Below are positions 33,171-61,843 of a DNA stretch of 64,000 nt, piece after piece. How positions within the stretch are numbered: the first letter of the stretch is position 1; each line of letters starts with the position of its first letter. The notes under the pieces were generated by a model, which ran no database searches, was not told the origin of the DNA, and worked only from the letters and a program-made list of their open reading frames with translations. The DNA lies in IMG/VR virus record IMGVR_UViG_3300042542_006078. One strand, given 5' to 3'. Position numbers and translations under genes: made by a program. This DNA is from a virus (taxonomy: Duplodnaviria; Caudoviricetes).

Positions 33171-34067
33171 TCAGGGCAACAAAATATATTCTGGTCTGAA
33201 TTCCTCTTTTGAACCACTATGATCTTTGATTTTAATTTGCTTGGCATTTCCGCTTACTTGTTTTTGATTAAGTAGGAATTCATATCCTTTTTGTTTTGAC
33301 CAGAATTTATGAATTACAAACAATGGTGTAAAGTAACCTTTGCCAGTACCATCACGGTACTGGGTTCCCCAACATGTTCCTATATAACTACCATCATCAT
33401 CTATAAGTCCTCCGCCACTCCTTCCGGGCCTTGGTGAATTATTGCGGGTAACCAAATCGTCGCCATCTATGCCAAGCATTTCAATGTCATAATGCGCTGT
33501 TTCTGTTCCAGAATCACAACCAACAGAATGTGAATGCTGACCCTTTACATACCTGTAATCCGAAGGGCCAATAGGAAAAAAGTTTGGTTCCCAGTCTGGT
33601 TTGAATGTAATCAGACCTGTATCTTGGCCATTAATGTAGCTATAGAAAATAACATTTGCATCATAAGATTTAGGAGCATCTAGTTTTTGGTCGTTGTGAT
33701 ACCAAACAATTACTTTACATTTCAAATTGCGTTTTTTGCCTTCTTCTGCATTCATTATGCCTTGTTCCCACAAGTGGCCACATGTAGCAACATATGCTGT
33801 TTTTTTGAAATTATCGAAATGAATTATTGTTCCTGATCCTGATGCTCCACCTACCATGATCTTTACAGAAGGAGCCAAATATTTCCTGAACTCAGGACCA
33901 CGCCTAGCTATTGGTGCTGGATTTTCATTGCCGAACTTGTCTCTCTCAAGAATCGGCATCCTGTCAAGGGAATCAATATCAAAAAACCTTGGATTGTCTT
34001 GATATGAATTAACAGGAGTAATTGCAAAAATCCACAAAGCAAGAGAATAAATTAATTTTTTAAGCAT
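33171..34067 (-). CDS. Secreted trypsin-like (S1) serine peptidase
   Basis: Signal peptide MLKKLIYSLALWIFAITPVNS; ATCGH (His), DTGL (Asp), GRSGGG (Ser). Confidence 0.85.
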   Translation of the reverse strand: MLKKLIYSLALWIFAITPVNSYQDNPRFFDIDSLDRMPILERDKFGNENPAPIARRGPEFRKYLAPSVKIMVGGASGSGTIIHFDNFKKTAYVATCGHLWEQGIMNAEEGKKRNLKCKVIVWYHNDQKLDAPKSYDANVIFYSYINGQDTGLITFKPDWEPNFFPIGPSDYRYVKGQHSHSVGCDSGTETAHYDIEMLGIDGDDLVTRNNSPRPGRSGGGLIDDDGSYIGTCWGTQYRDGTGKGYFTPLFVIHKFWSKQKGYEFLLNQKQVSGNAKQIKIKDHSGSKEEFRPEYILLP

Positions 34068-34118
34068 TTGAACTCCACAATAATTTGTGTAAAATATATA
34101 GTATTGGAGAAAACAATC

Positions 34119-34565
34119 ATGGCGACACTGACCGTTTCTCATCATCTTTACCTTACCAAGGAACAAAGATATGAACTGAATCAAGGCAAAGAAATAAAAA
34201 CAGTTGGAGTTTGCGTACCAGTATGGTTCCAAAAAGGAAACACATCAGAACCAGCACAGGAAATTTTTTGTAAATACAAAATTTATAATCCGAAAACTGG
34301 CGCAAACATTAAACAAGATGATGAAGGATTTGAGATTTGGATGCCAAGCATCAATAAAGATGAAGAATACATTGAAGGAGAAGGAAAAATTGCCATCCAA
34401 AAGAAAATAGGAACTTCGGAAAATTTGCTTGATTATAAAGATGGAGGAGAATCTAAATGCGATTTCAAATTATATCAAAAATTGTTAATCAATGATTCTT
34501 TGCACCACCTTGTGCATTTTATTGAAATAAAGCCTATTGAAATTCTGCTTGACACTATGGGTTAG
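34119..34565 (+). CDS. Hypothetical protein
   Basis: GGAG RBS before ATG 34119. Confidence 0.65.
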   Translation: MATLTVSHHLYLTKEQRYELNQGKEIKTVGVCVPVWFQKGNTSEPAQEIFCKYKIYNPKTGANIKQDDEGFEIWMPSINKDEEYIEGEGKIAIQKKIGTSENLLDYKDGGESKCDFKLYQKLLINDSLHHLVHFIEIKPIEILLDTMG

Positions 34566-35071
34566 GGGCAATCGTGTAGTTGCAATGACATTTTCAGGTT
34601 AACACTATCTCCGCTTGCCAATGTTATAGAAGAACTAAGTGGCGCAGATGAGACAAGTGTTCCTGTGTTGTCGGGAGTTGTGACCATGAAAAGATTTTTA
34701 ACAGGTCCGAATCCTGATGATGCTCCAGTATAAATCAGAGTTGGCGTTACTGCACGATAGATGCCTCCTATTGAAGTGATTGTGAATCCACTCGACGAAC
34801 TTATTGGAATTCTGGCATATCCTCCAGATACTGGCTCATCAATCAATGATGAAATTGTATCATTAATTGAAATTGTTGTTCTGTTATCGAGTCCAAAGTA
34901 ATAATTGTTTGGCAATATAGAGCCATCATTTGCAAAACATGCTGTTAAAAGAAACGCTTCACCCAATTGATGAAGAGTATTGTGAATATTACGGTCTTCC
35001 CAAATGACTTTGCCATTCCTAATATGTTGAATTGTTTCTATTTTCAATATTCCACGCCAATTATTTGTCAT
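34562..35071 (-). CDS. Putative virion structural protein (distant resemblance to 12766..13248)
   Basis: RG..KI.....G...W....HNT....G N-terminal pattern; S/T/G-rich beta composition. Confidence 0.5.
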   Translation of the reverse strand: MTNNWRGILKIETIQHIRNGKVIWEDRNIHNTLHQLGEAFLLTACFANDGSILPNNYYFGLDNRTTISINDTISSLIDEPVSGGYARIPISSSSGFTITSIGGIYRAVTPTLIYTGASSGFGPVKNLFMVTTPDNTGTLVSSAPLSSSITLASGDSVNLKMSLQLHDCP

Positions 35072-35580
35072 TTGAAATCTCCAAGACTAAATTTTATTTG
35101 ATTTTCTGGAGAAGAATAAATTAATTCTCTCACATTGAAACTCTTACCGTTAAAGTATTTATTACCCAAGAATTTTTCTCCTATTCCTTTTTTCATGTAG
35201 CAAATTGTAACATGAGGAATAAAAAAAGAATAAAAATTATCGAAATCTATGTTTTTTGAAAGTTTTTTGTTTACATCTATTATATCGTTGTTTGTTATTT
35301 CAACATATAAAACATCAAACTTACTGTTTGTCGTAAATAATTTTATATCACCTAATATACAATTAAATAAACTTTCTTCTACAATAGATTGTTTTATATT
35401 TCTTATAGATTGTTTTTTCAAATTACTTAAAACAGTAACATGAACATCGTGAACTCTACCGTATTGATCTCCGTTGATATATAAACAACTATCTTCAACT
35501 TGATCATAACACCAAGAAATAATTTCATCTGAAATTAAATCTGGTAATTCAGCTATGATATAAGAATTATCCAAAAACAT
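35068..35580 (-). CDS. 2H phosphoesterase (Acb1/gp57B-like or LigT-like)
   Basis: Two HxT motifs: DVHVTVL and FIPHVTICY. Confidence 0.8.
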   Translation of the reverse strand: MFLDNSYIIAELPDLISDEIISWCYDQVEDSCLYINGDQYGRVHDVHVTVLSNLKKQSIRNIKQSIVEESLFNCILGDIKLFTTNSKFDVLYVEITNNDIIDVNKKLSKNIDFDNFYSFFIPHVTICYMKKGIGEKFLGNKYFNGKSFNVRELIYSSPENQIKFSLGDFK

Positions 35581-35908
35581 TTTGTATTTCTCCGCTTTCT
35601 TCTTCTGGATAATCCAAGAGTTTTTTGGAATTTCGTTTATTTTTAATTTCTTCCAACTTTGTTTTCTCAGAATTAATTTCTTTGTCGATTACCTTTAGTG
35701 TGTTGAAATAATCATATTTTTTGACTGATAATTCTAATTTTCTTTTCTCTTGATTTGATTCACGAATTGATCTCTTTTTTTCTAAAGATTCCACAACATC
35801 CAATGCACGGACAATCAATGACTTGGCATCATTGAGAGCAAAGTCATCTGGAGCATTCAACAACGCTTGACGAAGTGAATTCTTGAGTGCTTCGGTATTA
35901 TTTTTCAT
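35567..35908 (-). CDS. Hypothetical coiled-coil protein
   Basis: 113-aa ORF in the minus-strand operon. Confidence 0.6.
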   Translation of the reverse strand: MKNNTEALKNSLRQALLNAPDDFALNDAKSLIVRALDVVESLEKKRSIRESNQEKRKLELSVKKYDYFNTLKVIDKEINSEKTKLEEIKNKRNSKKLLDYPEEESGEIQNVFG

Positions 35909-36881
35909 TTTGTCTCCTAAACAATTCTATCCATCTCAAATTAGATTCACCAATAATCTTGAATCCAGAAACATCTCCTTCTTGAAGAGACTTAAGAAGA
36001 TTTATTTTCTCTATTTTTACTTTCCATATATCTTGGTTTTCATCAATCGGAACATTCGTGAGGATTGTTCCTTTAGGAAGAAATGTTTTTATTCCCAAAG
36101 CTATTTGTTTTCTCTTATTTTCAAATAAGTCTCTATTCACTACAGGTTTCGACATGTACAAAGTTACCAATTGCTTAATTTTTGGGCTTTCCTTGAGTCT
36201 TTGCATTAAAGCCTGAATTTGATTCTTCATTCTTTCAGGCATTTCACTCAAAACAATATTTTCAATAACAAAACCATTTGTCTCTTTGAGTAAATCAAAA
36301 CTTGAAACAAATTGATTTCCTATTTCAACACGAGCTTTTTCAGCAATCCATTTATCAGAAGGCAAAGCTTTTATCATAATTGGATGATTATCCCATTCAA
36401 TTTTGCTCAATTCATTTTCTATTTTCAATACCATTTCTTCAAGGACAAATGTTGACTTATCAGTTAATGATTCGATTGCATAATCAACATCTTCAGGTTC
36501 TATTTCTTTTTTTAATATGTTTGATTGATAAAGCCAAAATTCAGATTCAATCAAATTGACAATTGATTCATCGAGAGAATTCTCAAAAATCCAATCTTCA
36601 ATTTTTTGTATATGGTTTAATATTTTTTTTGAATTGCCTTGTTCAAGGCAGATCATAAAGGATTCTATAAAAGGATAATCCGCTTCTTCCAATGCATTTT
36701 TTATTTTTTCACAGTCTATAGTTCTTCTTAGAGCATCACGGCTTTTATCATCGCTTTTCATTACAAGTCCAGATAGCGATGTTGTCAAATTCTCACGATA
36801 AAAATCAAGAGACATTCTAACAGTTGTAAGTTGAATTGATTTTTTTGAGATATAGTCTGATAAATTTTTATACATTTTCAA
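35898..36881 (-). CDS. Hypothetical protein downstream of the terminase
   Basis: 327-aa ORF with a 4-nt overlap to the terminase stop. Confidence 0.7.
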   Translation of the reverse strand: MKMYKNLSDYISKKSIQLTTVRMSLDFYRENLTTSLSGLVMKSDDKSRDALRRTIDCEKIKNALEEADYPFIESFMICLEQGNSKKILNHIQKIEDWIFENSLDESIVNLIESEFWLYQSNILKKEIEPEDVDYAIESLTDKSTFVLEEMVLKIENELSKIEWDNHPIMIKALPSDKWIAEKARVEIGNQFVSSFDLLKETNGFVIENIVLSEMPERMKNQIQALMQRLKESPKIKQLVTLYMSKPVVNRDLFENKRKQIALGIKTFLPKGTILTNVPIDENQDIWKVKIEKINLLKSLQEGDVSGFKIIGESNLRWIELFRRQNEK

Positions 36882-38740
36882 AATCCAAATTCCCTGAGTA
36901 ATTTGTCATACTTTCTTTCAGGTATGTAAGTATAACCACCATAGTATGAATCTTTTTCTGGTGCTAGAATATCAATTTCATCATCGGCTAGCAAATCTTC
37001 TGGAGAACCTTCCAAAAGTTGTTTTTTAATTTCTTCATAAACAGCATTCTTGATTATCTGAACTGATTCTTTTGGTCTTTCTGCTCCCATAGGCAAATCA
37101 CGGAGAAGAGTATCACGAACATAAAGTGCTATGCACATTGCCATGATTGCATCATCGTGTTTGCCTTTTTGAGCCTGAGCCTTTCTTGTTACTTTATTAT
37201 ATTCAAAAGTTTGTAGCTCACAAACAAATCTCATACTGTTGATTCTGACTGTTTGATTAGTGAGCCTATTTTGCAAAGATTCAAGATAAAGTGATCTGTT
37301 AGATTGGCCTATCTTTATGCCCGGTTTCGCATTTGCGTTTTTGTTGTTTTCAAAATATAAGTTATCGTAATAAAGAGTGTGCTGCAAGGCGCTAAGAACA
37401 GCGGTGCCCGGACCCATATTCTCAACAACCACTAATGCGTTATTGTAAAATGTTGCAACCTCATTGATAACTTGGGAAAATTCGTGTGGGATGATTAGAT
37501 TGGAATAAAATTCCACAACCTGTTCAAGAGTCGCTGTGTCAATGATATGAAAAACGCTGCTATCATTGTTTTCAGCCTGACCTTCGGCACAGTCGGCGGA
37601 AAGAATATACTCATGACCTTCAACAGGTTCTTTCCAAATCCACATAGCTCCCTTGTTATCGTCGTTATCAAGTTGAGCAACTCTTCCAGCTTGGTTTGCC
37701 CATTTGGGAAATAACTTACGACTTGGATAATTACTTCTTGTTTGTTCGGTCAAGCCGTTGATGATCTTGGCACTAAAATAAGTTTCTCCTGATCCTTGAA
37801 ACTCACGCAAAACTTCTTGGCGAAAACCCTTTTCTCCAAGCTGCGCTTTTTGTTCAGATACCCAACTCTCATCGTTGTAGTCTGGATGTTCCCAATAATC
37901 GAGATCAATCACATGGAACTTGTTTAAGCGGTCTTTAGCTTCACGATAAGTTTGTTCATACCAGTTTCCCAAACCATTTACCGTTGAAATCAATGTGCAT
38001 GAACCACCTGTTGAAAGAATGGGCCACATGGCTTTCCAGTGCTTTTCCATGTCATCAATGAACGCACATTCGTCAACAATAAGGAATGTTACTGATTTAC
38101 CACGGGCAGCTTCTGGAGAGTAAAACTTCAAAGCAGAACCAGTATCAGTGAATTGCTTTAAGTGGTCGTTCCACTTTCCATCTTTCTTAGGCTTGAGCCA
38201 TTCTGGCAAGTTTTCGCAAGCACGGTCTGCCATCATGCCGATGTCGGTGGCTTCACGATCTGTTTTGGAAATAAGCATGATTTGCTGGTCTAACTGAAAC
38301 ATGCATCTCCACAAACCCCACAAAAGAGTTACGGTAGTCAAACCGCCCTGACGGAATTTTGAAATAATATTGAAACGATTGGTCTCGTAATCGTATATGG
38401 TTTTTCTTTGGTATTTGTAAAGCACAAAAGGAATTAATCCACGCATTGGGTGAAGAATTTTGACATACTTGTGACAAAAGTATGCAAAACTATCAGAGCA
38501 TTTTATCATTTCCTTTTTGCGTCTGATAGGATCATATTTTTCAATATTTTCTAAAGGTTCATCAGGATCTATTTGCAATTCAAATTTGTCGAAGTTGTAA
38601 TACTTTGGATCATACTGCAACCTTCCTATTTCTGGATCATAATTGCCTCCAGAACGGTAATAATCATCCAAGCTTTTGAAATTACTTCTCCAGACGGAAT
38701 CTTTTGCGCTTTTGAAATAACGGGTTTCTTCCATTTGCAT
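36878..38740 (-). CDS. gp17: Terminase large subunit (T4 gp17-like)
   Basis: Q-motif FVLYKYQ; deviant Walker A KFRQGGLTT; Walker B LIVDECAF; ISTVNG; nuclease LSADCAEG, VENMGPG, HDDAIMA. Confidence 0.95.
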   Translation of the reverse strand: MQMEETRYFKSAKDSVWRSNFKSLDDYYRSGGNYDPEIGRLQYDPKYYNFDKFELQIDPDEPLENIEKYDPIRRKKEMIKCSDSFAYFCHKYVKILHPMRGLIPFVLYKYQRKTIYDYETNRFNIISKFRQGGLTTVTLLWGLWRCMFQLDQQIMLISKTDREATDIGMMADRACENLPEWLKPKKDGKWNDHLKQFTDTGSALKFYSPEAARGKSVTFLIVDECAFIDDMEKHWKAMWPILSTGGSCTLISTVNGLGNWYEQTYREAKDRLNKFHVIDLDYWEHPDYNDESWVSEQKAQLGEKGFRQEVLREFQGSGETYFSAKIINGLTEQTRSNYPSRKLFPKWANQAGRVAQLDNDDNKGAMWIWKEPVEGHEYILSADCAEGQAENNDSSVFHIIDTATLEQVVEFYSNLIIPHEFSQVINEVATFYNNALVVVENMGPGTAVLSALQHTLYYDNLYFENNKNANAKPGIKIGQSNRSLYLESLQNRLTNQTVRINSMRFVCELQTFEYNKVTRKAQAQKGKHDDAIMAMCIALYVRDTLLRDLPMGAERPKESVQIIKNAVYEEIKKQLLEGSPEDLLADDEIDILAPEKDSYYGGYTYIPERKYDKLLREFGF

Positions 38741-38817
38741 CCAATTAATTTATAGTTTTTTTAAGACAAAACTAAGATAATGTATATAGTTTAGGCTATT
38801 CCAAAACAGAGGTCTAT

Positions 38818-39957
38818 ATGAAAAAGTTGCACATATGCGTGTTGGCTCTTGGCTTCTTACTGTTGGCAATACTGTTAAATAAGGAAAGAAATTCACAACA
38901 TGAACAAAATCATCCAGAAAGCCCCTTTGAAAATAAAGTAGAAAAGAAACCAGAAAAAAAAGAAGAACCTCCCAAATTAACAATTGCAGAGGCAATATCC
39001 AAAATCGACAGAATCGATTTGAGGACACATCTTGAATACCTTGCTTCAAATGAATTAGAAGGAAGAATGTCTGGCAAGAAGGGCAATAAAACTGCTGCTG
39101 AATACATCAAGAAGAAATTTGACGACAAAGGACTTTCAGCGGAATACGATAAATTCAACATCAAAAGAGTCAATCCCGGCCCCAAGAATGAAATTGGCGA
39201 TGATTTTACACAGAACATCTATGCAGTTCTAGAAGGAAACGATCCTGTCCTTAAGGATGAAGTAGTTGTGATTGGTGCCCACATGGACCATATAGGATAT
39301 GGTCCAACATACAGTCGCACAGGAGGAGGAAGGATTCATAATGGAGCAGACGATAATGCAAGTGGAACTGCGGCCTTGATTGAAATGGCAGAAGCATTGT
39401 CTGCTATGAAAGGGCAAAACAAAAGAACGATTGTTCTTATGGCATTCTCAGCAGAAGAAATGGGACTTCTTGGTAGTATCCATTATGTGAACAATCCCAA
39501 ATTCCCAAAAGGAAATCCAAATATCAAGAAACACATTTTCATGTTGAATATGGACATGATTGGTTATCTTGGCAAAAGCAAAACAGTTGCTTTTGATGAT
39601 GGATCAAGTTCGCCAGATATTGGCTTTATCATTAAGCAACTGACAGAAAAATATTCTTTTGCAAAAAATGTAACTTTGAGAGGCTCTGGTGGAAGTGATC
39701 ACGCACCCTTCTATAATAAAAGAGTGCCGATAGCGTTCCTTCATACTGGATTGCATGAATACTATCACACCCCCAGAGATACTGCTGACAAGATCAATTA
39801 TGAAGGTCTTGAAAAAGTTGCAAGATACGGTTTTGAATTGGCGTGGACCGTATGCAATGCAGTTGAAAGAGTCGAGTTTGACTATGGGTCATTCAAGGAA
39901 ATGGATTTGCTTCACGACCACGGTCAAAAAGACATGCCACTAGAGGAAATGCCATGA
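38818..39957 (+). CDS. M28 family metallopeptidase with an N-terminal signal/anchor
   Basis: GAHMDH, GADDNASG, AEEMGLLGS, NMDMIG, SDHAPF, YHTPRD. Confidence 0.93.
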   Translation: MKKLHICVLALGFLLLAILLNKERNSQHEQNHPESPFENKVEKKPEKKEEPPKLTIAEAISKIDRIDLRTHLEYLASNELEGRMSGKKGNKTAAEYIKKKFDDKGLSAEYDKFNIKRVNPGPKNEIGDDFTQNIYAVLEGNDPVLKDEVVVIGAHMDHIGYGPTYSRTGGGRIHNGADDNASGTAALIEMAEALSAMKGQNKRTIVLMAFSAEEMGLLGSIHYVNNPKFPKGNPNIKKHIFMLNMDMIGYLGKSKTVAFDDGSSSPDIGFIIKQLTEKYSFAKNVTLRGSGGSDHAPFYNKRVPIAFLHTGLHEYYHTPRDTADKINYEGLEKVARYGFELAWTVCNAVERVEFDYGSFKEMDLLHDHGQKDMPLEEMP

Positions 39958-40382: not shown

Positions 40383-40476
40383 CTTGATTGTTATCTTCTC
40401 GCTCTATACAATTTAATGGATGAATTCTTCATAAATCCGTCACTTCATGAGAGTGCGGAACTAAGAGGGAATAAAC

Positions 40477-40779: not shown

Positions 40780-40803
40780 AGCAAATTCTGAATAAATGTC
40801 TTC

Positions 40804-40837
40804 AAGACACTACTAAATAAAGTAGTGTCTTTTTTTT
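40804..40837 (+). terminator. Intrinsic terminator; stem and loop together contain CTAAATA
   Basis: 11-bp stem aagacactact / agtagtgtctt, loop aaataa, followed by a T run. Confidence 0.8.
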
Positions 40838-42088: not shown

Positions 42089-42099
42089 ATTACCTCATA

Positions 42100-42663: not shown

Positions 42664-42688
42664 CCCTTTTTTTAAGGAATTAGCTATA

Positions 42689-43591: not shown

Positions 43592-43641
43592 CTCTGATCA
43601 CTATATATTCATGTCGTGAATAACTAACTCAAAGGAGCAAC

Positions 43642-45354
43642 ATGTTGCAAGGAATACTGAATTGGTTTAGACAAAACACTAGATTCATTTTTGAGAACGA
43701 TCCACTTGTTGATTCTCAAGCAATTCCAACAACAAAAAATAATCTCAACAAAACATACTTAATCGACGCTTCAGCACCATCTCTCGTAATCGAAAAATTA
43801 ATGCCAATATCAACGGCTTTACCAATGACTTCTCAAGGAGAATCTGGTGGAGGATATGCTCTTGGAACATCACAACAGCAAGCTGCTGGTCTAAAGCAAA
43901 TCGTGAATGAAGCACTTGTTTACATGATGGCAAAATCCCCCAAGAAAATTGTAAAATGGGCAGCTACATCAAATATTTCTCTCGTATCCAGAGCAGGAAC
44001 TGACATCAATGCCTTTTATGACAGAAAAGCTTTGAAGTTCTTTTACTTCACAGACAAATTAAGAAAAAAAACAGTATTTGCATGCGACTCAAGAACTGTA
44101 GTTTCACACGAATTTGGTCATGCTCTCCTCGATATTCTAAGACCTGATCTTTGGAACTTGGTTTCAGATGAGATTTGGGCATTTCATGAAGCATTTGGCG
44201 ATATGGTAGCCATGCTCAACAACCTTCAATATGAAGCATTAATCGATGCGGCTACAAAAGAAACTACAGACCTGACAAAATCAAGCGTCTTAACAAGACT
44301 TGCGGCAGACATGGGAATAGGACTATATGGTTTAACAAAAGGAACAAGCGGCGAATTGAATAATTGCCTTCGTGACATTTCACAAAAATTCCAATATGTT
44401 AGCCCATCAAGTCTCCCTAGTGATGGAAGAGATGATCAAATTATCAATGAGCCTCATAGCTTCAGTCGGGTTTTCTCAAGCATGTTTTGGTATATTCTCG
44501 TACAAGTTGCAAATTCATACATTTTAGTAGATAAACTCGCACCCAAAGCTGCTTTGGTGAAAGCAAGAGATACTATGTCAGTTTATTTACTTGTTGCTGT
44601 AAGCAGCGCATCAGCAAATAACAAGTTTTTTAGATCAGTGTGTCAAGAAATTATAATTGCAGATAAAAAAGCAGGAGGAAGATTCCAAAATCTTTTCATG
44701 TCAATATTTGTTGAATGGAAGATGTATGAATCTCCAATCAAAATGCTTAGTAAATTAACTTATGACGATGTCATTAAGAATATTGATCAGGATTTTGAAT
44801 ACCAAGACCACGGGACAATCAAAGCTTTACATGTAGGATCAAGTAAAACAATAAAACTTTCTGATTCTGTTGGTGTAGCCTCTTTGGCTATGAACCCATT
44901 GTTCTCAGCAGAAATAGAGGTTGCGGCAAAATCATCATATTACTTCGATGAAAACATGATACTTCAAGAAGCAATAGAATCTACTGAAGCAGAAATATTA
45001 CAGAGCGCAACAAACTGTCTTAACCTAATCGATAAGAAAAATTGGCTAGGCGAAAGTGACAAAGCACAATTTGAACTTGTTGATGGAAAACTTCAAAGAA
45101 CAAAGATTGCTGCATGCGGATGTAATAAACCTAATTATTGCATACCCGGATCACCCGAGTATCAAAAACCTTGGAAGCCTAAAAACAACGCTGGTTGTAT
45201 TAAATGCCGAAATCAAAACTGTTTGCCTAAATCATGTGATTGCACCAGCCCTACGCCTCCAGCACCACCTAAAACTGGATGTTATACAACATCATCAACA
45301 TGCAAAACAACAAGTATAAGAGTCGGCAATAAAACTTCAAGGAAGGTCTGTTAG
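43642..45354 (+). CDS. Gluzincin metallopeptidase (M4 thermolysin / M36 fungalysin-like) with a Cys-rich C-terminal tail
   Basis: INAFYD, SHEFGH (HExxH), FHEAFGD (third ligand), EPH; 11 Cys in the last ~80 aa; RBS AAGGAG. Confidence 0.85.
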   Translation: MLQGILNWFRQNTRFIFENDPLVDSQAIPTTKNNLNKTYLIDASAPSLVIEKLMPISTALPMTSQGESGGGYALGTSQQQAAGLKQIVNEALVYMMAKSPKKIVKWAATSNISLVSRAGTDINAFYDRKALKFFYFTDKLRKKTVFACDSRTVVSHEFGHALLDILRPDLWNLVSDEIWAFHEAFGDMVAMLNNLQYEALIDAATKETTDLTKSSVLTRLAADMGIGLYGLTKGTSGELNNCLRDISQKFQYVSPSSLPSDGRDDQIINEPHSFSRVFSSMFWYILVQVANSYILVDKLAPKAALVKARDTMSVYLLVAVSSASANNKFFRSVCQEIIIADKKAGGRFQNLFMSIFVEWKMYESPIKMLSKLTYDDVIKNIDQDFEYQDHGTIKALHVGSSKTIKLSDSVGVASLAMNPLFSAEIEVAAKSSYYFDENMILQEAIESTEAEILQSATNCLNLIDKKNWLGESDKAQFELVDGKLQRTKIAACGCNKPNYCIPGSPEYQKPWKPKNNAGCIKCRNQNCLPKSCDCTSPTPPAPPKTGCYTTSSTCKTTSIRVGNKTSRKVC

Positions 45355-46255: not shown

Positions 46256-46289
46256 AAGGGAGTCCATGATAATATGGACTCCCTTTTTT
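46256..46289 (+). terminator. Intrinsic terminator
   Basis: 12-bp stem aagggagtccat / atggactccctt, loop gataat, T tail. Confidence 0.85.
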
Positions 46290-46332
46290 GTTTATAAAGA
46301 CTCTATATATTTACAAAACCTATGAGGATTTT

Positions 46333-47073
46333 ATGGCAAGATTCTTTTGTTTGATGTTATTTTTTGCCACCAACTTCATGGTCTTGGCTGAAAAACCACC
46401 AATTCCATTTGAAGAAAGAACATTCCCTCAAAAACCAAGCATCAAACAATTCCCAAGCGTTTACCTTGCTGTCGATACAAATCCAATAGTCGCCTATGAC
46501 GGCGCTATTGACGAAGATCTTTCTGACCTCATGGTTCCCATACCAATGAGAGATCGAGTATTCAACAGAACAGGAATTCAATGCGTATGGGCATCAACAG
46601 AAGCACTGGGAAGATACGCAGAAGAACCAAAACTAATCAACCTCACAGACGACCCAGAATGTAAAAGCTACGCTGGACCAGCAAGTTATTCACGGAAAAT
46701 GAAAGAGCGTGGCGTAAAATACCAAATGACATATGATACAAGTGAAAGAAATTTAATTAAAAAGTCAGTCGTGCAAGAAAGAAGAGGATGTATGTTCTGC
46801 GTCCCCGGTCATGCAATGGTTATGGTTCATTACGATGAGAAAAAAGGAATTGTAAAATACTTCAATAACTCAGATAGATCATTGGCAATAAGAACTTGGA
46901 CAATGGCTGAATTCAATAAAAGATTTGAAGGATGGGTTTCAGTAATTTATGCCGATAATGATATAGTACCACAAAAATATTCACCTCAAATTCCACAATT
47001 ACCCATCATAGACAGAAATAGCCAACAAGGAATATACGACAAAGAATATATCTTGCAACCATCAAAGAATTGA
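46333..47073 (+). CDS. Secreted papain-fold (C39-like) cysteine peptidase
   Basis: Signal peptide MARFFCLMLFFATNFMVLA; GIQCVWAS (Cys), GHAMVMVHYD (His), YFNNSD. Confidence 0.7.
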   Translation: MARFFCLMLFFATNFMVLAEKPPIPFEERTFPQKPSIKQFPSVYLAVDTNPIVAYDGAIDEDLSDLMVPIPMRDRVFNRTGIQCVWASTEALGRYAEEPKLINLTDDPECKSYAGPASYSRKMKERGVKYQMTYDTSERNLIKKSVVQERRGCMFCVPGHAMVMVHYDEKKGIVKYFNNSDRSLAIRTWTMAEFNKRFEGWVSVIYADNDIVPQKYSPQIPQLPIIDRNSQQGIYDKEYILQPSKN

Positions 47074-47983: not shown

Positions 47984-48027
47984 AATCGATATATAGTTTG
48001 TCGGATTCTTTTATAACAAGGAGTGTT

Positions 48028-49092
48028 ATGAAAAATAGTCTTATTAAGACAATTGTCGTCCTTCTGCTTTCGGCAGCTATTTTTGCCACTTACAATAAAA
48101 AGTCTTCTTCTAAAATAATCATAAATTCCTCTCCAAAAGAGACGGAAGTAATTGAAATTCAATCAAAAGAAACAGAAAAATTAAAAACTTTTAATATTTC
48201 AACAAAAATACCAGAGTTTTTAACCTATCCGCAAACAGTAGAACAAATCAAAAAATGGAAAGAAGAAGCAAGCGAAATAGTTCAAGTAGAAAAATATGGA
48301 AAAACAAAAAAAGGAACAGACCTTTATTACATTCGTGTCAATTCTGATGAAAAAAAAGTAAAACCAAAAGTTCTAATTACTGCCTGCATTCATGGTAATG
48401 AACCTCTTGCATCTGGAATAGTCATGGCCTATATTGGCAATTTATTGGAACAATACAATAAAAACAGAGAAATAACCGATCTTGTCAAAACTAGAGATTT
48501 ATATTTTGTTCCAGTAGTATCTCCAGACAGCTATCCAGACTCAAGAATGGTTGACGGAGTTGATCCAAACAGAGATTTTTCAAGCCCTAAATTTCCAAAT
48601 CATCAAAGCAGCCCAAGCGTTGCTGCACTAATCGATCTTTACTGGAAAGTAAGACCATCAGCAGTAATTTCTGGGCATACATTTGGCAGACTTATTCTTA
48701 CTCCATACGGAGACAGATATGACAAATCATTTCACGAAAAAGATTACACAAGAATTGTTGGAAAAATGTCAGAAATGACAGGATATAAGAGAATTCATGC
48801 GGCAGAACTTTACAGCAGACCAATACAAGGAACAGAAGTTGATTGGTTCTACAGAAATGGATCAATGGCTGTCGTGATTGAATTCGGCACACATCAACAC
48901 AAACCATCTTTTTCAGACATTCTCAACGAGTTCAATAAAACAAAGGGCGCAATCTCGCTTTTCATCAACGAAGCACCTATTGTCCCATTCACAGTGGCCG
49001 ACGAAGAGATTGATTTTTCAAAAAATACAGGTATCGCTCATACTTATCGCAAGCCTGCGAACGGAGAACTGACCCCAGCAAGTCATCACTAA
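48028..49092 (+). CDS. M14 zinc carboxypeptidase with an N-terminal signal/anchor
   Basis: IHGNE (HxxE), GVDPNRDF, ISGHTFG, IEFG; AAGGAG before ATG 48028. Confidence 0.92.
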   Translation: MKNSLIKTIVVLLLSAAIFATYNKKSSSKIIINSSPKETEVIEIQSKETEKLKTFNISTKIPEFLTYPQTVEQIKKWKEEASEIVQVEKYGKTKKGTDLYYIRVNSDEKKVKPKVLITACIHGNEPLASGIVMAYIGNLLEQYNKNREITDLVKTRDLYFVPVVSPDSYPDSRMVDGVDPNRDFSSPKFPNHQSSPSVAALIDLYWKVRPSAVISGHTFGRLILTPYGDRYDKSFHEKDYTRIVGKMSEMTGYKRIHAAELYSRPIQGTEVDWFYRNGSMAVVIEFGTHQHKPSFSDILNEFNKTKGAISLFINEAPIVPFTVADEEIDFSKNTGIAHTYRKPANGELTPASHH

Positions 49093-52802: not shown

Positions 52803-52837
52803 AAAAAACACCCAACTCAAAAAGTTGGGTGTTTTTT
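52803..52837. terminator. Bidirectional intrinsic terminator
   Basis: aaaaaacacccaact / agttgggtgtttttt inverted repeat between convergent genes. Confidence 0.85.
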
Positions 52838-53486
52838 ATTTGACTGGATATTTCAAGACACATTCAGTCAAGTTACTTGCCCTCATTCCTTTTTTTTCAT
52901 TTCCAACAATTGAAATTGGAATTTTGGTGGGTAATGATGCTCCAGAAAAAATCTTAGTGAAAAAGTTTCCGCCCAAAATCATGTAATAAAACCACCAAGG
53001 AACAATATCCTTCAACAAATATGAACCACCCAAATCATATCCGCATTTTCCATATATCCACTTTACAGATTCAGTGCAATAAAAATTTGAAGAATCATTA
53101 AAATTAAAATCATAACTTGGATCTTCTTCCAAAAATTTATAAATATTTTTCTTAAAACACTCATCATCCAAAAATGATCTATTCTTCAAACGATAAACAC
53201 AAAATTCAGTCATTTGCCAATCATCAAACCAGTCTATCAAACGCAATTTTCTTGTTCCCCAATCTGATACATCAACTGCATATGTTTCACCTTCTTCGAC
53301 AAGAATGCAAGTTCCATGTGAATATGGTGAATTTGTAAAATATTGAATCAGTTTAGAAAATGGTATTCCGAATGGACCGGGAACATTAGCGGCGTTGTAT
53401 ACGATGTCTCCATTTTTAAGTGGCAAAGATTTCAATAAACTAACTATTTCTTTTCTTTTTTCGTAAAGAGGACCAAGTTTAATCAT
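52836..53486 (-). CDS. Permuted papain-like amidase (YiiX/YebB, C92)
   Basis: LKNGDIV...SPYSHG...YDFNF......YCTESV with His before Cys. Confidence 0.85.
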   Translation of the reverse strand: MIKLGPLYEKRKEIVSLLKSLPLKNGDIVYNAANVPGPFGIPFSKLIQYFTNSPYSHGTCILVEEGETYAVDVSDWGTRKLRLIDWFDDWQMTEFCVYRLKNRSFLDDECFKKNIYKFLEEDPSYDFNFNDSSNFYCTESVKWIYGKCGYDLGGSYLLKDIVPWWFYYMILGGNFFTKIFSGASLPTKIPISIVGNEKKGMRASNLTECVLKYPVK

Positions 53487-53858: not shown

Positions 53859-53951
53859 TTATTTGTCCAATTTTACAAGTTGTTGCATACTTATATATGA
53901 TGTTGGATTAGTAATCTGTCACAAGGTGATAGAGTGAAAATAAAAACAATT

Positions 53952-56124: not shown

Positions 56125-56811
56125 ATGGAAAATCAATTCCTTCTAGTTGATTGCTGCAACAACGGAGGATTTACCATGAGTCTTAACGAGTCAGTCTCCG
56201 ATAGGGGACTGACTAAGTTCAAAGGTAAATTCCAAGAAGCAGAAGCAATCAATAAAAATAAAAGAATCTATCCATACGGAGTTCTTGACGAAAATGTTAA
56301 GAAACTTCTGCCGATTATCCAAAACCGTGGCCTGATCGGAGAACTCGATCACCCAACCGATTCTATAATCCACTTTGAAAAATGCTCTCACATTGTTACT
56401 AAACTATGGTGGGAAGGCAACAACCTAATGGGAGAGGGAGAAATCCTCAATACACCACATGGGAAAATTCTAAAGGCCCTACTGAACGATGGAGTTCGTG
56501 TGGGGATATCAAGCCGTGGAGTAGGAAACGGAAGAAGCGACGAGAATGGAATCCTTGTGATTGGTGAAAGCTACAAACTCATTACCTTCGATGCTGTAGC
56601 AGATCCAAGCACACACTCAGCATTTCAGGAGAAAGTGTCGAGTGGTAAGAAAGAAAGTTATGCCCCAACTGCAAATAATGCAGAAATTTCTAAAAATGCG
56701 GTTAAAAACGAAAGTAGCCGCATACATAATGTCAGAAAAGATGCATTGTTGGCTTGTTTGGGCGGAATAATCGAACAACAAACACGAAACATTACAGCGA
56801 GGTTAGGCTAA
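56125..56811 (+). CDS. gp21: Prohead core protease gp21
   Basis: FQEAEAINKNKRIYP; GELDHP; ILNTPHG; VGISSRGVG; ITFDAVADPST. Confidence 0.95.
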   Translation: MENQFLLVDCCNNGGFTMSLNESVSDRGLTKFKGKFQEAEAINKNKRIYPYGVLDENVKKLLPIIQNRGLIGELDHPTDSIIHFEKCSHIVTKLWWEGNNLMGEGEILNTPHGKILKALLNDGVRVGISSRGVGNGRSDENGILVIGESYKLITFDAVADPSTHSAFQEKVSSGKKESYAPTANNAEISKNAVKNESSRIHNVRKDALLACLGGIIEQQTRNITARLG

Positions 56812-59244: not shown

Positions 59245-59347
59245 ACAAGCATCTAAATATTTTCTTAAAATTGCTGAAAAAATCCTTGATTTCTAAAATT
59301 TGCTTACTATAATACCTTTGCGGGGCAATAAGAAAAAGAGGTGTTAC

Positions 59348-60877
59348 ATGGAACCGAACATCATCGTGATGAATGAGTTGAATCAGAATAAGCATTGGGC
59401 TAAGGAAGTCCTTGAAGTTGCCCGCAAAACAAATCCAAATTCATTCCTTTTCTATAAACATGAATTCATAAAAAAAGAACAACAGATCAAATCACATGTT
59501 AATTCATACACAAGCAACAACATGAGATCGGTTTTTGCAAGAAAATGCAAAGTAACAGCAATTGAAACTGATGTGATGAGAAAATTCTGTAATAAATATC
59601 ACATTCAAGGAGCAAACACCCTTGCGATTATTGCATTTGGAATATTTGAAGGAGATGAGCTTCTAGGAGTTCTTTCTTTGGGAAGACATCATCGCAACAA
59701 TGAAGATGTTTTGCTTGATAGGATGTGTTTTAAGAATAATGTAAGGGTAGTTGGTGGAGCCAGTAAATTATTTAATGCTGCTGTAGTTTGGGCAAAAGCT
59801 CAAGGAATCGATAAGATAATCAGCTTTAGTGATAATCGTTACAGTCTTGGAACTGTTTATGATAAACTCGGCTTTACTTTAGAAAGTGAATTGGTTCCTG
59901 ATTACTTTTATGTTGAGCGTGAAAATATTGAAAAGGCTTATAGCAAACAAAGCCAAAAAAAGCAGAATGTTGACTGTCCAGAAGGAATGACAGAAAGGCA
60001 ATGGGCAGAAGAAAGAGGTTTGGTTCAGGTTTATGACGCTGGAAAAAAGCGTTGGATATACAAACTTAGAAAAGTTGTTACAAATTCATTTGCTACTCGC
60101 AGGCATGGTTTTTATGAAACTAAAAAAAGCAGACCGAAAACAATTTATTATCAATCAAGCTATGAGTTAAGAGCGGCAACAATACTTGACAACGATGAAG
60201 CTGTTGATTTTTATACTACTCAAGTTACAGCTTCTATTGACGGAAGGGAAAGAATTATTGATTTTCTCGTTACATACAAATCTGGCGTTGTTTCAATAAT
60301 TGAAGTCAAACCAAGACTCAAAATAGAAGCATGTAAGCAACAAATTGAAGACAACAAGAAAATTGCTCGTGAAAACAGTTGGAGATTCCAGTTGTGGACA
60401 GAGACAGAACTGGGATTTGATTCTGAATACAAAGCTGTTTGTTGGGCTGACATGTTTCTTTCAGAAATACAAGGAATTGATTATGTAGAAGAAAGAAGAG
60501 ATCGTCGCAATGAAAGTGTGAAAAAACATTACAAAAAACATATAGCTACAAAAACTGTAGAAGTCCCCTGTGCCTTCTGTAATGAGGTTCATACGGCTCT
60601 GAGGCTGACTTATGACAAGAACATAGCTAGGAATGGGCGATACATTTGTGAGCGTGAGGGAGGGCATATAGCTGGCAGCAAACCTAAATTGAGTTTGAGG
60701 AAAGATAATCCCCATTCATGTGATGGTAAGAAGGAATGTAATAAGTGTAAGGAAGTTAAATTATTTGAGCAATTTAGTCCTGACAAGAGCAAGCGTGATG
60801 GATATTGTACTATGTGTAAGCCTTGTCGTTCTGAGAAGATGAAGGCTCTGTATGAGTCAAAGAAAAAGAAAAAATAA
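59348..60877 (+). CDS. Multidomain putative homing endonuclease: Hef-like/GNAT-like domain, TnsA-type PD-(D/E)XK domain and Zn ribbon
   Basis: ARKC...YHIQG...VVGGASKLF...ISFSDNRYSLGTVYDKLGF; YQSSYELR...IDFLVTY...IIEVKP; KECNKC...CTMCKPC. Confidence 0.7.
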   Translation: MEPNIIVMNELNQNKHWAKEVLEVARKTNPNSFLFYKHEFIKKEQQIKSHVNSYTSNNMRSVFARKCKVTAIETDVMRKFCNKYHIQGANTLAIIAFGIFEGDELLGVLSLGRHHRNNEDVLLDRMCFKNNVRVVGGASKLFNAAVVWAKAQGIDKIISFSDNRYSLGTVYDKLGFTLESELVPDYFYVERENIEKAYSKQSQKKQNVDCPEGMTERQWAEERGLVQVYDAGKKRWIYKLRKVVTNSFATRRHGFYETKKSRPKTIYYQSSYELRAATILDNDEAVDFYTTQVTASIDGRERIIDFLVTYKSGVVSIIEVKPRLKIEACKQQIEDNKKIARENSWRFQLWTETELGFDSEYKAVCWADMFLSEIQGIDYVEERRDRRNESVKKHYKKHIATKTVEVPCAFCNEVHTALRLTYDKNIARNGRYICEREGGHIAGSKPKLSLRKDNPHSCDGKKECNKCKEVKLFEQFSPDKSKRDGYCTMCKPCRSEKMKALYESKKKKK

Positions 60878-60958
60878 TTAGTATTTATAATATAAACAAT
60901 ATTTTATCTTCAAAAGATGAGGTCTTAAATTATTTTAACTTTTGTTGTGAATGTTTTG

Positions 60959-60966
60959 CATAAATA
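60959..60966 (+). promoter_or_regulatory. Putative late promoter core CATAAATA
   Basis: Immediately upstream of ATG 60971, with no room for an SD sequence between them. Confidence 0.4.
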
Positions 60967-60970
60967 ACAT

Positions 60971-61843
60971 ATGGAATTCCGTAATTTTATTGAAAACGCA
61001 TCATTAAATGAGTGTGTGGTTGCTGGTGTGCGACTACAGGATGGTGTTGTATTGGCCAAGAATCGTGATCGTGGATACAAGGCCAATGTTGAAATAATTC
61101 ATGAATTAATTAATGGTACAGAGGTTATGTACTGGCATGATATTGATACAGATTGGTGTGAAGGGATGAATGAGTATGGTTTAGGGATGGTGAGTAGTAG
61201 TTTGATGGTGAATCAGGATGAGAAGGAAGGATTGCGTGTTATAAATGGCAAGAAGGTTCCTGACGACAAGCATAAGAAGATAGTAACAAATGAGGGCAAT
61301 AAGATAAGGCAGGCTTTGTCGCATGTTAATCTTAAAGACATGGTTCATAGCATTGTGAATGGCAAGAATAAAAAGGGTAAGAATGTTGGTCTTCGTGGTC
61401 AGACATTGGTAAGTGATGGTGTTAATTTATATGCTTTAGAAATCACAAAAGATAGCAAGGTTGTTAAAAGGGTTTCGGATGATGATTCTGTGACTGTGAG
61501 AACAAATCATGGCATATATGACAAAGAAGCTGGTTATAACAAGGGTAGGAAGAAGGAGTCTTCTCACAGCAGGATGAATTTGGCTCAGAAGAATTTGGTG
61601 GATGTTAATTTGCCAAGTGATGTTTTGGACATTTTGAAAAAAAAATATGTATCTGATCCATTTTTGAATCCTTACAGGACAAAGAGTCCATGGTTGATGC
61701 ATACGACTGGTCAAATTTTATTGGATTTGAAAAATTTGCGTGTTATGGTCAGGATGGATAAGGACGAGGGTGTATTTCGTGGTATTGTAAATAACTTGCC
61801 TATTGGTTATAATTCAAAGATCAGGGTTGTTGTTGAGCATTAA
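60971..61843 (+). CDS. Ntn-hydrolase (C45/C59-like) with a 14-aa N-terminal leader
   Basis: LNE|CVVAG...LAKNRD; EGMNEYGL; RTNHG; S..R fit a Cys-nucleophile Ntn fold. Confidence 0.72.
   Translation: MEFRNFIENASLNECVVAGVRLQDGVVLAKNRDRGYKANVEIIHELINGTEVMYWHDIDTDWCEGMNEYGLGMVSSSLMVNQDEKEGLRVINGKKVPDDKHKKIVTNEGNKIRQALSHVNLKDMVHSIVNGKNKKGKNVGLRGQTLVSDGVNLYALEITKDSKVVKRVSDDDSVTVRTNHGIYDKEAGYNKGRKKESSHSRMNLAQKNLVDVNLPSDVLDILKKKYVSDPFLNPYRTKSPWLMHTTGQILLDLKNLRVMVRMDKDEGVFRGIVNNLPIGYNSKIRVVVEH

What the first reader, a model, noticed from the sequence alone, without database searches (positions are those of the whole stretch)
33171..61843. A phage-borne protease arsenal: seven unrelated peptidase/amidase families, four apparently exported
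Seen, with catalytic residues intact: S1 trypsin-like (33171-34067, signal peptide), M28 (38818, signal/anchor), M4/M36-like gluzincin (43642), papain/C39-like (46333, signal peptide), M14 carboxypeptidase (48028, signal/anchor), YiiX/C92 amidase (52836) and an Ntn hydrolase (60971). These are in addition to gp21, and a lipoprotein sits among them. Established: phages normally carry only a maturation protease and lysins. Inference: a coordinated extracytoplasmic proteolysis programme, for example remodelling a protein-rich envelope, destroying receptors for superinfection exclusion, scavenging peptides, or lysing a host with a proteinaceous wall. The GRSGGG trypsin and DUF3568-like lipoprotein suggest a Planctomycetota/PVC-type host to me, which is an unverified inference.
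Basis: partly seen in the sequence, partly recalled or inferred. Interest (0 to 1): 0.75.

Follow-up and report, generated by a model that had tools for sequence, protein, structure and literature searches.

The report
Exported peptidase set of a huge phage
A half-megabase freshwater phage keeps, among its head and packaging genes, a conserved group of protein-cutting enzymes, four with export signals; each of the five conserved genes follows the same promoter-like TATATA box and two share a short C-terminal tag, which points to a phage-run proteolysis system in the host cell envelope that has not been described.

Summary
All seven genes are at the stated coordinates and look like intact hydrolases. 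M28 and M14 are strong Pfam matches. S1 just passes, with an invariant His/Asp/Ser triad. The HExxH protein has a thermolysin/fungalysin fold. The Cys/His protein is C39-like on a weak model. YiiX and C45/Ntn are weak but significant matches.

The window is a fragment of a roughly 0.5 Mb T4-like lake phage and is not a chimera. S1, M28, the gluzincin, the C39-like gene and M14, usually with a DUF3568 lipoprotein, form a syntenic block kept in a subclade at 45-65% identity; YiiX and Ntn do not.

In every ortholog examined, S1, C39-like, M28 and M14 keep an N-terminal hydrophobic export segment.

Two new points:
- A TATATA box, otherwise depleted, lies 23-34 nt before the start codons of the five block genes and is kept in 29 of 36 orthologs.
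- S1 and C39-like (and a C13/C14-like peptidase in relatives) share a 21-residue C-terminal tag, found in IMG/VR only on these exported peptidases.

Ntn has a late-type promoter and a capsid-targeting-like leader, so it is probably virion cargo.

The purpose (digestion, lysis or exclusion) and the host (hints of Planctomycetota) remain open. The scan noted this stretch once before, from an overlapping window.

The parts
33171..34067 (-). Exported S1 (Trypsin_2) serine endopeptidase, 298 aa, with a signal peptide (cleavage probably after VNS)
   Evidence: Pfam 28.4 bits; triad H98/D149/S217 invariant; N-terminal hydrophobic segment in 6/6 orthologs
33174..33236 (-). C-terminal tag of S1 (IKIKDH...EYILLP), a member of the shared tail motif
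   Evidence: Alignment A7; profile search of genomes; IMG/VR pattern scan
34095..34100 (.). TATATA box 28 nt upstream of the S1 start codon
   Evidence: kept upstream of 6/6 S1 orthologs
38783..38788 (.). TATATA box between the divergent terminase and M28 genes, 29 nt before the M28 start codon
   Evidence: kept in 4/5 orthologs
38818..39957 (+). M28 aminopeptidase-like enzyme on an N-terminal membrane anchor with a Pro/Lys/Glu-rich stalk; its stop codon overlaps the start of a ferritin-like gene
   Evidence: Pfam 151 bits; NCBIfam LapA-like 5e-21; ligands invariant; anchor in 5/5 orthologs
43602..43607 (.). TATATA box 34 nt before the gluzincin start codon
   Evidence: kept in 8/11 orthologs
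43642..45354 (+). Thermolysin-fold (M4/M36-like) zinc metallopeptidase, 570 aa, with no signal peptide and a Cys-rich, poorly modelled C-terminal 80 aa
45337..45774 (-). DUF3568 lipoprotein (the lipobox Cys aligns with AGC/SGC in orthologs)
   Evidence: Pfam 42.5 bits; ortholog N-termini
46256..46285 (+). Strong terminator-like hairpin (13 pairs plus a T run) that separates the acidic-protein gene from the C39-like gene
46304..46309 (.). TATATA box 23 nt before the C39-like start codon
   Evidence: kept in 5/8 orthologs
46333..47073 (+). Exported C39-like (papain-fold) cysteine peptidase, 246 aa, with a signal peptide (VLA|EK)
   Evidence: Invariant C84/H160; fold matches to C39 domains on a weak model; 466 homologs, none with a Pfam domain; signal segment in 8/8 orthologs
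46999..47061 (+). C-terminal tag of the C39-like peptidase (LPIIDRN...EYILQP)
47990..47995 (.). TATATA box 32 nt before the M14 start codon
   Evidence: kept in 6/6 orthologs
48028..49092 (+). M14 zinc carboxypeptidase on an N-terminal anchor or signal with a low-complexity stalk
   Evidence: Pfam 94 bits; H122/E125/H217/E285 invariant; anchor in 6/6 orthologs
52836..53486 (-). YiiX-type permuted papain-like amidase, no export signal, not found in relatives; second gene of a two-gene unit
   Evidence: NCBIfam 1.5e-9; PDB 2if6 E 0.009; 0/15 relatives
53892..53897 (.). TATATA box 33 nt before ORF 53496-53858 (minus strand), the gene ahead of YiiX
56125..56811 (+). gp21-type prohead maturation protease (context, not part of the exported set)
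   Evidence: PHROG 207, 1.2e-48
60959..60966 (+). CATAAATA late-type promoter motif 12 nt before the Ntn start codon
60971..61843 (+). C45-like Ntn hydrolase; Cys15 follows a 14-aa leader ending LNE; probably capsid cargo rather than exported
   Evidence: NCBIfam C45_proenzyme 4.6e-6; the ortholog in L063 keeps Cys right after a 10-aa leader ending FNE

Best explanation
The window belongs to a T4-like freshwater phage of about 0.5 Mb. A subclade of these phages keeps an accessory module among its terminase, portal and capsid genes. The module comprises two exported endopeptidases (S1 serine, C39-like cysteine), two membrane-tethered exopeptidases on flexible stalks (M28 amino-, M14 carboxy-), usually a DUF3568 lipoprotein, and a thermolysin-fold metallopeptidase that has no export signal. 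Each of the five peptidase genes is its own transcription unit behind the same TATATA box, so they are probably switched on together (inferred). The Sec machinery then places the four in the host periplasm or on the outer face of the inner membrane (inferred from N-termini). The two endopeptidases, and a C13/C14-like one in relatives, end in a shared 21-residue linear motif that co-varies within genomes. I read this motif as a common docking or latency tag (inferred). An endo-, amino- and carboxypeptidase set is what complete digestion of envelope or periplasmic proteins and peptides needs. My best guess for the purpose is breakdown of host envelope protein, for amino-acid supply or for weakening or stripping the envelope. 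Lysis help and superinfection exclusion remain live alternatives. YiiX and the Ntn hydrolase are separate: they are strain-level additions, and the Ntn enzyme is probably packaged in the head.
For: - Enzyme identity and intact sites.
- Same gene order in G001: S1 at 312.7 kb, M28 at 318.8, gluzincin at 324.3, C39-like at 327.4, M14 at 329.4, capsid gene near 339 kb. The order also holds in G002, G014 and G008.
- Phage M28 forms one clade, 100/100.
- Export segments occur in 25 of 25 orthologs and in 26 of 27 tag-bearing proteins from IMG/VR, against 11 of 99 long frames as background.
- TATATA occurs at 17 sites where 63 are expected. Six of 8 peptidase units have it within 75 nt upstream, against 5 of 58 other genes. 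It is kept before 29 of 36 orthologs of the five genes.
- Tag: alignment A7 and within-genome co-variation. Of 40 IMG/VR pattern hits, 38 are C-termini of S1, C39-like or C13/C14-like proteins.
- The tag was not found in 101 Planctomycetota genomes.
- Independent assemblies from other lakes carry the same linkage.
Against: - No signal-peptide predictor, no expression data and no activity data were available.
- The TATATA association was found post hoc, the box is palindromic and it may be a general promoter class. About 14 well-placed boxes occur in 136 kb, and half of them precede other genes.
- The genes lie on both strands and are interleaved with packaging genes.
- The block is missing from five related contigs, including the 595 kb LR756511.1, so it is dispensable.
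- The gluzincin has no export signal and is far more widely conserved than the rest (12/15 contigs; 2968 family representatives). It may have an unrelated role, for example in the virion.
- The C39-like assignment rests on a model with pLDDT 48.
- Nothing shows what the tag binds.
Confidence: 0.62

Rival explanations
1. Lysis or entry system built on peptidases. The exported and tethered enzymes cut peptidoglycan stem peptides or wall proteins, taking the place of a glycosidase or amidase endolysin, and the C-terminal tags keep the endopeptidases latent until lysis.
For: - The complete relative G001 and LR756511.1 have no match to Phage_lysozyme, Amidase_2, SLT or NlpC/P60, with controls ringing.
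- M14 shows a faint likeness to MpaA (E 0.0014).
Against: - An M23 peptidase, a classical wall endopeptidase family, is present in G001 and in LR756511.1.
- Many lysin families were not searched (GH25, GH73, GH108, Amidase_3, M15), and GH19 had no ringing control.
- M28 and S1 are not known murein hydrolase families (my knowledge).
- The anchors are strongly hydrophobic, unlike the release-type anchors of SAR endolysins (my knowledge).
- Relatives that lack the block must still lyse.
Confidence: 0.2
2. No programme. The peptidases are unrelated accessory genes that have collected in a variable island between core structural genes, each with its own role, such as exclusion, defence or counter-defence.
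For: - Patchy distribution: S1 in 6/15 contigs, M28 in 5/15, C39-like in 6/15, M14 in 4/15, YiiX and Ntn in 0/15.
- The genes are on different strands.
- Jumbo phages are known to carry patchily distributed peptidases (PMC7824862).
Against: - Four or five of the genes travel together, in the same order, at 45-65% identity.
- The conserved TATATA box.
- The tag shared by unrelated folds and co-varying within genomes.
- The complementary endo-, amino- and carboxy-activities.
Confidence: 0.15
3. Virion cargo. The enzymes are packaged or tail-borne and are delivered into the next host.
For: - The genes lie among head genes.
- Ntn has a CATAAATA motif and a leader ending LNE directly before Cys15. 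An ortholog has a leader ending FNE directly before Cys. The leader resembles the T4 capsid-targeting sequence, as noted in e1-5404702 and e1-5404742.
- The gene ahead of YiiX begins MKTFQQYLNIKE.
Against: - Conserved Sec-type signal peptides and membrane anchors on S1, C39-like, M28 and M14 do not fit assembly into cytoplasmic proheads.
- None of the four has such a leader.
Confidence: 0.05

Closest known systems
Envelope-directed proteins of huge phages (sortase B with signal-peptide substrates, PspA, outer-membrane beta-barrels; Yuan and Chen 2026, bioRxiv 10.64898/2026.10.24.761521)
   Same: Huge phages encode proteins with signal peptides that act in the host cell envelope. Peptidases are named there as a frequent auxiliary class.
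   Different: That paper describes no exported peptidase set, no shared C-terminal tag and no common promoter box. Its examples are mostly from gut phages.
Patchily distributed peptidases of jumbo phages (Iyer, Anantharaman, Krishnan, Burroughs and Aravind 2021, PMC7824862)
   Same: Several peptidase families beyond the prohead protease occur in these phages. The authors suggest that patchy ones are aimed at the host.
   Different: Their examples (ClpP, SprT-like, zincin-like, NlpC/P60) are cytoplasmic or virion-linked. The words 'secreted', 'signal peptide' and 'lipoprotein' do not occur in the text.
Periplasmic and lipoprotein factors of T-even and T5 phages (Imm/Sp, Llp, Rz/Rz1 spanins, SAR endolysins; from my own knowledge)
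   Same: Phage proteins exported by the host Sec or Lol routes to act in the envelope during infection.
   Different: Those are inhibitors, spanins or muramidases, not a multi-class peptidase set. None has the tag described here.
Thermolysin (M4) and fungalysin (M36) metallopeptidases
   Same: HExxH plus a downstream Glu ligand. The predicted fold matches 7z6t, 4k90, 1bqb, 4ger and thermolysin (probability 1.0, TM by target 0.50-0.59).
   Different: No signal peptide or propeptide of the usual type; an extra C-terminal domain and a Cys-rich tail. The window protein misses every Pfam threshold, and sequence identity to solved structures is 11-17%.
T4 capsid-targeting sequence of internal proteins
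   Same: The Ntn enzyme has a short leader ending in Leu-x-Glu before the mature N-terminus and a late-type promoter.
   Different: Cleavage here would expose the catalytic Cys of an Ntn hydrolase. This resemblance was read by eye only and applies to one of the seven genes.

Membership tests
S1 / Trypsin_2 (clan PA) | Profile match above the Pfam gathering score | tested here: met
   28.4 bits against a cut-off of 27.6, residues 132-285 of the long frame; marginal
S1 / Trypsin_2 (clan PA) | Catalytic His, Asp and Ser in that order | tested here: met
   H98 (CGHLW), D149 (QDT) and S217 (GRSGGG) are invariant in 7 orthologs
M28 aminopeptidase | Profile match, two-zinc ligand set and catalytic Glu | tested here: met
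   151 bits. H155, D178, E213/E214, D246 and H317 are invariant. Which residue serves as which ligand is assigned from my knowledge of the family.
M14 carboxypeptidase | Profile match, HxxE...H zinc ligands and catalytic Glu | tested here: met
   94 bits; H122, E125, H217, E285 and R182 invariant
M4/M36 thermolysin-like gluzincins | HExxH plus a Glu ligand about 20-25 residues downstream | tested here: met
   H156, E157, H160 and E183 are invariant in 10 orthologs and at least 90% kept in 150 family members
M4/M36 thermolysin-like gluzincins | Profile match above the Pfam threshold | tested here: not met
   No Pfam hit for the window protein and no PDB sequence hit even with a profile. Of 95 relatives, 43 match M4 and 14 match M36 at E up to 0.01. 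It is therefore a distant relative of these families, not a member by the Pfam rule.
M4/M36 thermolysin-like gluzincins | Thermolysin fold | tested here: met
   AF2 model with pLDDT 87. The top 27 Foldseek hits are M36 or M4 enzymes, probability 1.0.
C39 / C39-like papain-fold peptidases | Profile match | tested here: not met
   No Pfam or NCBIfam hit. One of 121 homologs touches Peptidase_C39 at E 0.062. hhalign against the genome's own true C39_2 protein gives probability 1%.
C39 / C39-like papain-fold peptidases | Papain-like fold with Cys and His in the usual places | tested here: inconclusive
   C84 and H160 are invariant. C39 domains rank first in VIA-align (Z 8.4) and Foldseek (E 3e-4), but the model has pLDDT 48. 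The protein-atlas features point the same way.
YiiX permuted papain-like amidases | Profile match with His before Cys (permuted order) | tested here: inconclusive
   NCBIfam E 1.5e-9, but 37.7 bits against an equivalog cut-off of 216. The alignment to 2if6 pairs YSH with YSH and YCTE with YCSE.
C45 / Ntn hydrolases | Profile match and an N-terminal nucleophile exposed by processing | tested here: inconclusive
   C45_proenzyme E 4.6e-6, 26 bits against a cut-off of 85, covering only residues 146-257. Cys15 follows the leader and is kept in the one ortholog. Processing cannot be tested here.
Sec signal peptide / signal anchor | Basic n-region, hydrophobic h-region, small residues at -3 and -1 for the cleaved type | tested here: met
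   Tested by a hydropathy heuristic and by eye only. S1 ends VNS|Y and the C39-like protein VLA|E. M28 and M14 have anchors followed by stalks. The feature is kept in 25/25 orthologs. SignalP and DeepTMHMM were not available.
DUF3568 lipoprotein | Pfam match plus lipobox | tested here: met
   42.5 bits against a cut-off of 23.2. Orthologs read FAGC, TAGC and FSGC at the aligned position.
T4 capsid-targeting sequence (Ntn only) | Short N-terminal leader ending [LI]xE, cut by the prohead protease | not testable with these tools
   The leader ends LNE in the window and FNE in the ortholog. Cleavage and packaging need virion proteomics.

The most novel reading that the evidence does not exclude
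The 21-residue C-terminal motif (I-P-I-x-D-R ... Y-x-x-x-Y-I-[LP]-x-P) is a new phage-specific tag. It docks or holds latent a set of Sec-exported peptidases of three unrelated catalytic classes. Together with tethered amino- and carboxypeptidases, these form a phage-controlled proteolytic machine in the periplasm that is switched on from a dedicated TATATA promoter class. In a Planctomycetota-like host this machine would take over part of the job of an endolysin.
Probability: 0.15. Interest if true: 0.85.

Novelty: new variant of a known kind. Interest (0 to 1): 0.62.

Why it matters
Phage proteins that act in the host envelope are usually inhibitors, spanins or wall glycosidases. Here a conserved, probably co-regulated set of exported proteases from four catalytic classes suggests that some huge phages digest or remodel host envelope proteins from the inside during infection.

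The shared C-terminal tag is a short, easily tested handle. It may reveal a new localisation or latency signal, and it marks the members of the system in metagenomes.

The phage recurs in lake metagenomes from about 15 studies, so the system is ecologically common, although no isolate in GenBank carries the tag-bearing families.

Tried and rejected
- Complex prediction of mature S1 with the mature C39-like protein gave no answer (score 0.00). This counts neither for nor against binding.
- No RNA holder was listed among public runs, so there is nothing on expression or transcript starts.
- Run X6 showed no cover over 45948-49117. No contig bridges the gap, so I draw no conclusion from it.
- A Pfam scan of 121 C39-like homologs gave nothing useful, and a PDB profile search gave nothing.
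- The gluzincin against PDB, by sequence and by profile, gave nothing.
The controls were silent too, so this is uninformative.
- The tag profile against 101 Planctomycetota genomes gave one chance-level hit.
One DNA pattern had too few fixed bases, and one had a frame error of mine and returned a single irrelevant hit.
- A sigma-70 consensus scan of 33000-49500 gave no excess over shuffles (60 against 60.1), so the TATATA boxes are not ordinary -35/-10 promoters by that test.
- GH19 search: nothing rang anywhere, including the controls.
- The chimera or host-contamination idea was rejected (and phage genes lie on both sides of the block).

Full report
**What the DNA is.** The window is the minus strand of positions 200-64199 of a 136,667-base IMG/VR virus record that CheckV rates 31% complete.
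- It encodes a T4-type large terminase, a gp20-type portal with an intein, a gp21-type prohead protease and a gp23-type capsid protein.
- The capsid protein is 81% identical to that of LR756511.1, a 595 kb uncultured phage. It has 361 relatives in IMG/VR, among them a 532,729-base record rated complete (G001).
- So this is a fragment of a huge phage of about half a megabase.
- Near-identical DNA of 43000-49500 occurs in 20 lake or freshwater runs from about 15 studies.
- Contigs from other runs independently join S1 to the terminase, the terminase to M28 through to the gluzincin and lipoprotein, and the C39-like gene through M14 to the portal. The only break is at an acidic low-complexity repeat. 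A chimera with host DNA is excluded.

**Are the seven enzymes real?**
- M28 (151 bits) and M14 (94 bits) are clear Pfam matches. Every metal-binding and catalytic position is invariant in orthologs.
- S1 only just passes Pfam (28.4 against 27.6), but His98, Asp149 and Ser217 are invariant.
- The HExxH protein has no Pfam or PDB sequence match. Its family is very large: 2968 representatives at E up to 0.001. Of 95 members, 43 touch Peptidase_M4 and 14 touch M36. HExxH and the downstream Glu are nearly invariant. A confident model (pLDDT 87) finds fungalysins and thermolysin-like enzymes as its top 27 matches.
- The Cys/His protein has 466 homologs, none with a Pfam domain, and Cys84 and His160 are invariant. 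Its model is poor (pLDDT 48). Two independent fold searches nevertheless rank C39 domains first (Z 8.4; E 3e-4), and the protein-atlas features agree. I call it C39-like with moderate confidence.
- YiiX is supported by NCBIfam (E 1.5e-9) and by an alignment to E. coli YiiX that pairs the His and Cys motifs.
- The Ntn call is the weakest: C45_proenzyme E 4.6e-6 over the C-terminal half only, and Pfam AAT below threshold.

**Export.** No signal-peptide predictor was on hand, so I used hydropathy and conservation.
- The window proteins read as follows. S1 and the C39-like protein have a basic start, a hydrophobic run and small residues at -3 and -1. M28 and M14 have a stronger hydrophobic helix followed by a Pro/Lys/Glu-rich stalk, which suggests signal anchors.
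- The N-terminal 30-60 residues do not align between orthologs. BLAST alignments start at about residue 55 in M28 and M14. Even so, every ortholog has the hydrophobic segment: S1 6/6, M28 5/5, C39-like 8/8, M14 6/6.
- The same liberal test passes 11 of 99 long frames of the record, and these include the set itself.
- The lipoprotein is DUF3568, with lipobox cysteines in its orthologs.
- The gluzincin, YiiX and Ntn have no such segment.

**Conservation.** I searched fifteen related contigs.

| Gene | Contigs with a match (of 15) |
|---|---|
| Gluzincin | 12, including LR756511.1 |
| S1 | 6 |
| C39-like | 6 |
| M28 | 5 |
| M14 | 4 |
| YiiX | 0 |
| Ntn | 0 (one ortholog found in another locus) |

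- In G001 the five genes lie in the same order and spacing as in the window, just upstream of the capsid gene. The same holds in G002 and G014, and most of the genes are present in G008.
- Their identities are 45-65%, against about 90% for the capsid protein.
- In a tree with 80 bacterial M28 sequences, the phage sequences form one clade (100/100) on a long stem.
- The block is therefore old and fast-evolving in a subclade, and absent from other members (G003-G006, LR756511.1).

**New point 1: a common promoter-like box.**
- TATATA occurs 17 times in the window, where base composition predicts 63. Eight of the sites are non-coding.
- Boxes lie 23-34 nt before the start codons of S1, M28, the gluzincin, the C39-like gene, M14 and the gene ahead of YiiX.
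- Six of 8 peptidase units have a box within 75 nt upstream, against 5 of 58 other genes. Three of those five are divergent neighbours that share the same palindromic box. Fisher p is 1.2e-4, and it is a post hoc test.
- Independent support comes from orthologs. The box is kept before 29 of 36 of them (S1 6/6, M28 4/5, gluzincin 8/11, C39-like 5/8, M14 6/6), although the flanking sequence differs.
- It is not an ordinary sigma-70 promoter by a consensus scan.
- A strong terminator immediately before the C39-like box shows that this gene is its own transcription unit.
- Outside the window, another box precedes a signal-anchored 316-residue protein, which lies next to a bona fide C39_2 peptidase with an N-terminal hydrophobic segment.
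- The Ntn gene instead has CATAAATA 12 nt before its start codon.

**New point 2: a shared C-terminal tag.**
- S1 and the C39-like protein end in the same motif of about 21 residues, I-P-I-x-D-R, six variable residues, [YFW], three variable residues, then [YF]-I-[LP]-x-P, followed by 0-5 residues.
- The two copies in one genome resemble each other more than they resemble orthologous copies elsewhere. For example, both read DFIP in G008, both have GPQG in G002, and both end YILMP in G011.
- In the 136 kb record only these two genes carry the tag.
- In G001 a third protein carries it. It is signal-anchored, has GHG and SCHAG motifs, and has C13/C14 peptidases as its nearest atlas families and structures.
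- A degenerate DNA pattern found 40 places in IMG/VR. Thirty-eight are C-termini of S1 (22), C39-like (13) or C13/C14-like (3) proteins. Twenty-six of 27 distinct full-length ones have an export segment; the exception is cut off by a contig end.
- The tag was not found in 101 Planctomycetota genomes. No GenBank phage has an S1 or C39-like homolog.
- The tag region was modelled with very low confidence, as expected of a short linear motif.
- I read it as a common docking or latency signal. Its partner is unknown, and the one complex job gave no answer.

**What the system does.**
- Shown: the enzymes look intact, the block is conserved, and the export-type N-termini, the box and the tag exist.
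- Inferred: Sec export, co-expression and a common location.
- The set combines two or three endopeptidases with an aminopeptidase and a carboxypeptidase, which is what complete breakdown of proteins to amino acids requires. That is my preferred reading, at about one in three.
- A role in lysis is a serious rival. The complete relative and LR756511.1 lack Phage_lysozyme, Amidase_2, SLT and NlpC/P60. They do have an M23 peptidase, and many lysin families were not searched.
- Receptor destruction or exclusion cannot be judged from sequence.
- YiiX and Ntn are separate matters. The Ntn leader ends LNE directly before Cys15 (FNE before Cys in the ortholog). This fits an earlier unchecked note that the prohead protease would expose the nucleophile inside the head.

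**Host.**
- The best bacterial M28 matches are four Planctomycetota at 35-39% identity, but many phyla follow closely and the tree does not resolve the sister group.
- DUF3568 is found above the cut-off in 22 of 101 Planctomycetota genomes, and in 0 of 101 Bacteroidota and 0 of 14 control genomes. Other phyla were not sampled.

**Compared with the literature.**
- Jumbo phages are known to carry several peptidases, some patchily distributed and thought to be aimed at the host (PMC7824862).
- A recent preprint describes sortases, PspA and outer-membrane proteins of huge phages and lists peptidases only as a common class.
- I found no description of an exported multi-class peptidase set, of this tag or of this box.
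- I rate it a new variant of a known kind, namely phage proteins that act in the host envelope.

Noticed in passing
window 45861-46232 (+): A 123-residue protein made almost wholly of Asp/Glu runs with spaced Trp lies directly upstream of the C39-like gene. The same arrangement is seen in G011 (L107:15316-15714), and an acidic repeat lies at the same place in G001. Metagenome assemblies break at this repeat.
   Followed up: partly
window about 45110-45354 (gluzincin residues about 490-570): A Cys- and Pro-rich C-terminal tail (PEYxKPWKPxNNxGC ... KVC) is conserved in most orthologs and absent in two. In G011 a stop codon splits it off as a separate 83-residue ORF. It is poorly modelled.
   Followed up: partly
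G000:C1:79371-81031 (outside the window; L110): A bona fide C39_2 peptidase with an N-terminal hydrophobic segment (Pfam 44.6 bits) lies next to a 316-residue signal-anchored protein of no known family. That protein is preceded by a TATATA box.
   Followed up: partly
window 39954-40382 (+): A ferritin-like gene (Pfam 6e-15) has a start codon that overlaps the stop codon of the exported M28 gene, so the two are probably translationally coupled.
   Followed up: no
window 47070-47768 (+) and 48989-49600 (-): Two small genes flank M14. The first overlaps the stop codon of the C39-like gene and has a faint Stf0 sulfotransferase match (E 0.001). The second has no Pfam hit.
   Followed up: no
M28 C-terminus, window about 39880-39957: A conserved C-terminal motif, F-[KR]-E-[ML]-x-x-x-H-D-H-G-[HQ], is shared by most of the M28 orthologs. 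It is distinct from the S1/C39 tag.
   Followed up: no
window 49961-50653 within the portal gene: An intein lies in the gp20-type portal protein (Pfam Intein_splicing 2e-10).
   Followed up: no
window 59300-60877 (+): A fusion of a Mom-like/GNAT domain with a TnsA-type endonuclease domain and Cys-rich fingers sits directly after the capsid gene.
   Followed up: no
L239 (IMGVR_UViG_3300015263_000944): One tag-bearing C39-like homolog has a lipobox (GFAGC) in place of a plain signal peptide, so in some phages this enzyme may be lipid-anchored.
   Followed up: no
G001 and LR756511.1, whole records: Neither complete huge-phage genome has a match to the Phage_lysozyme, Amidase_2, SLT or NlpC/P60 families, while each has one M23 peptidase.
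   Followed up: partly
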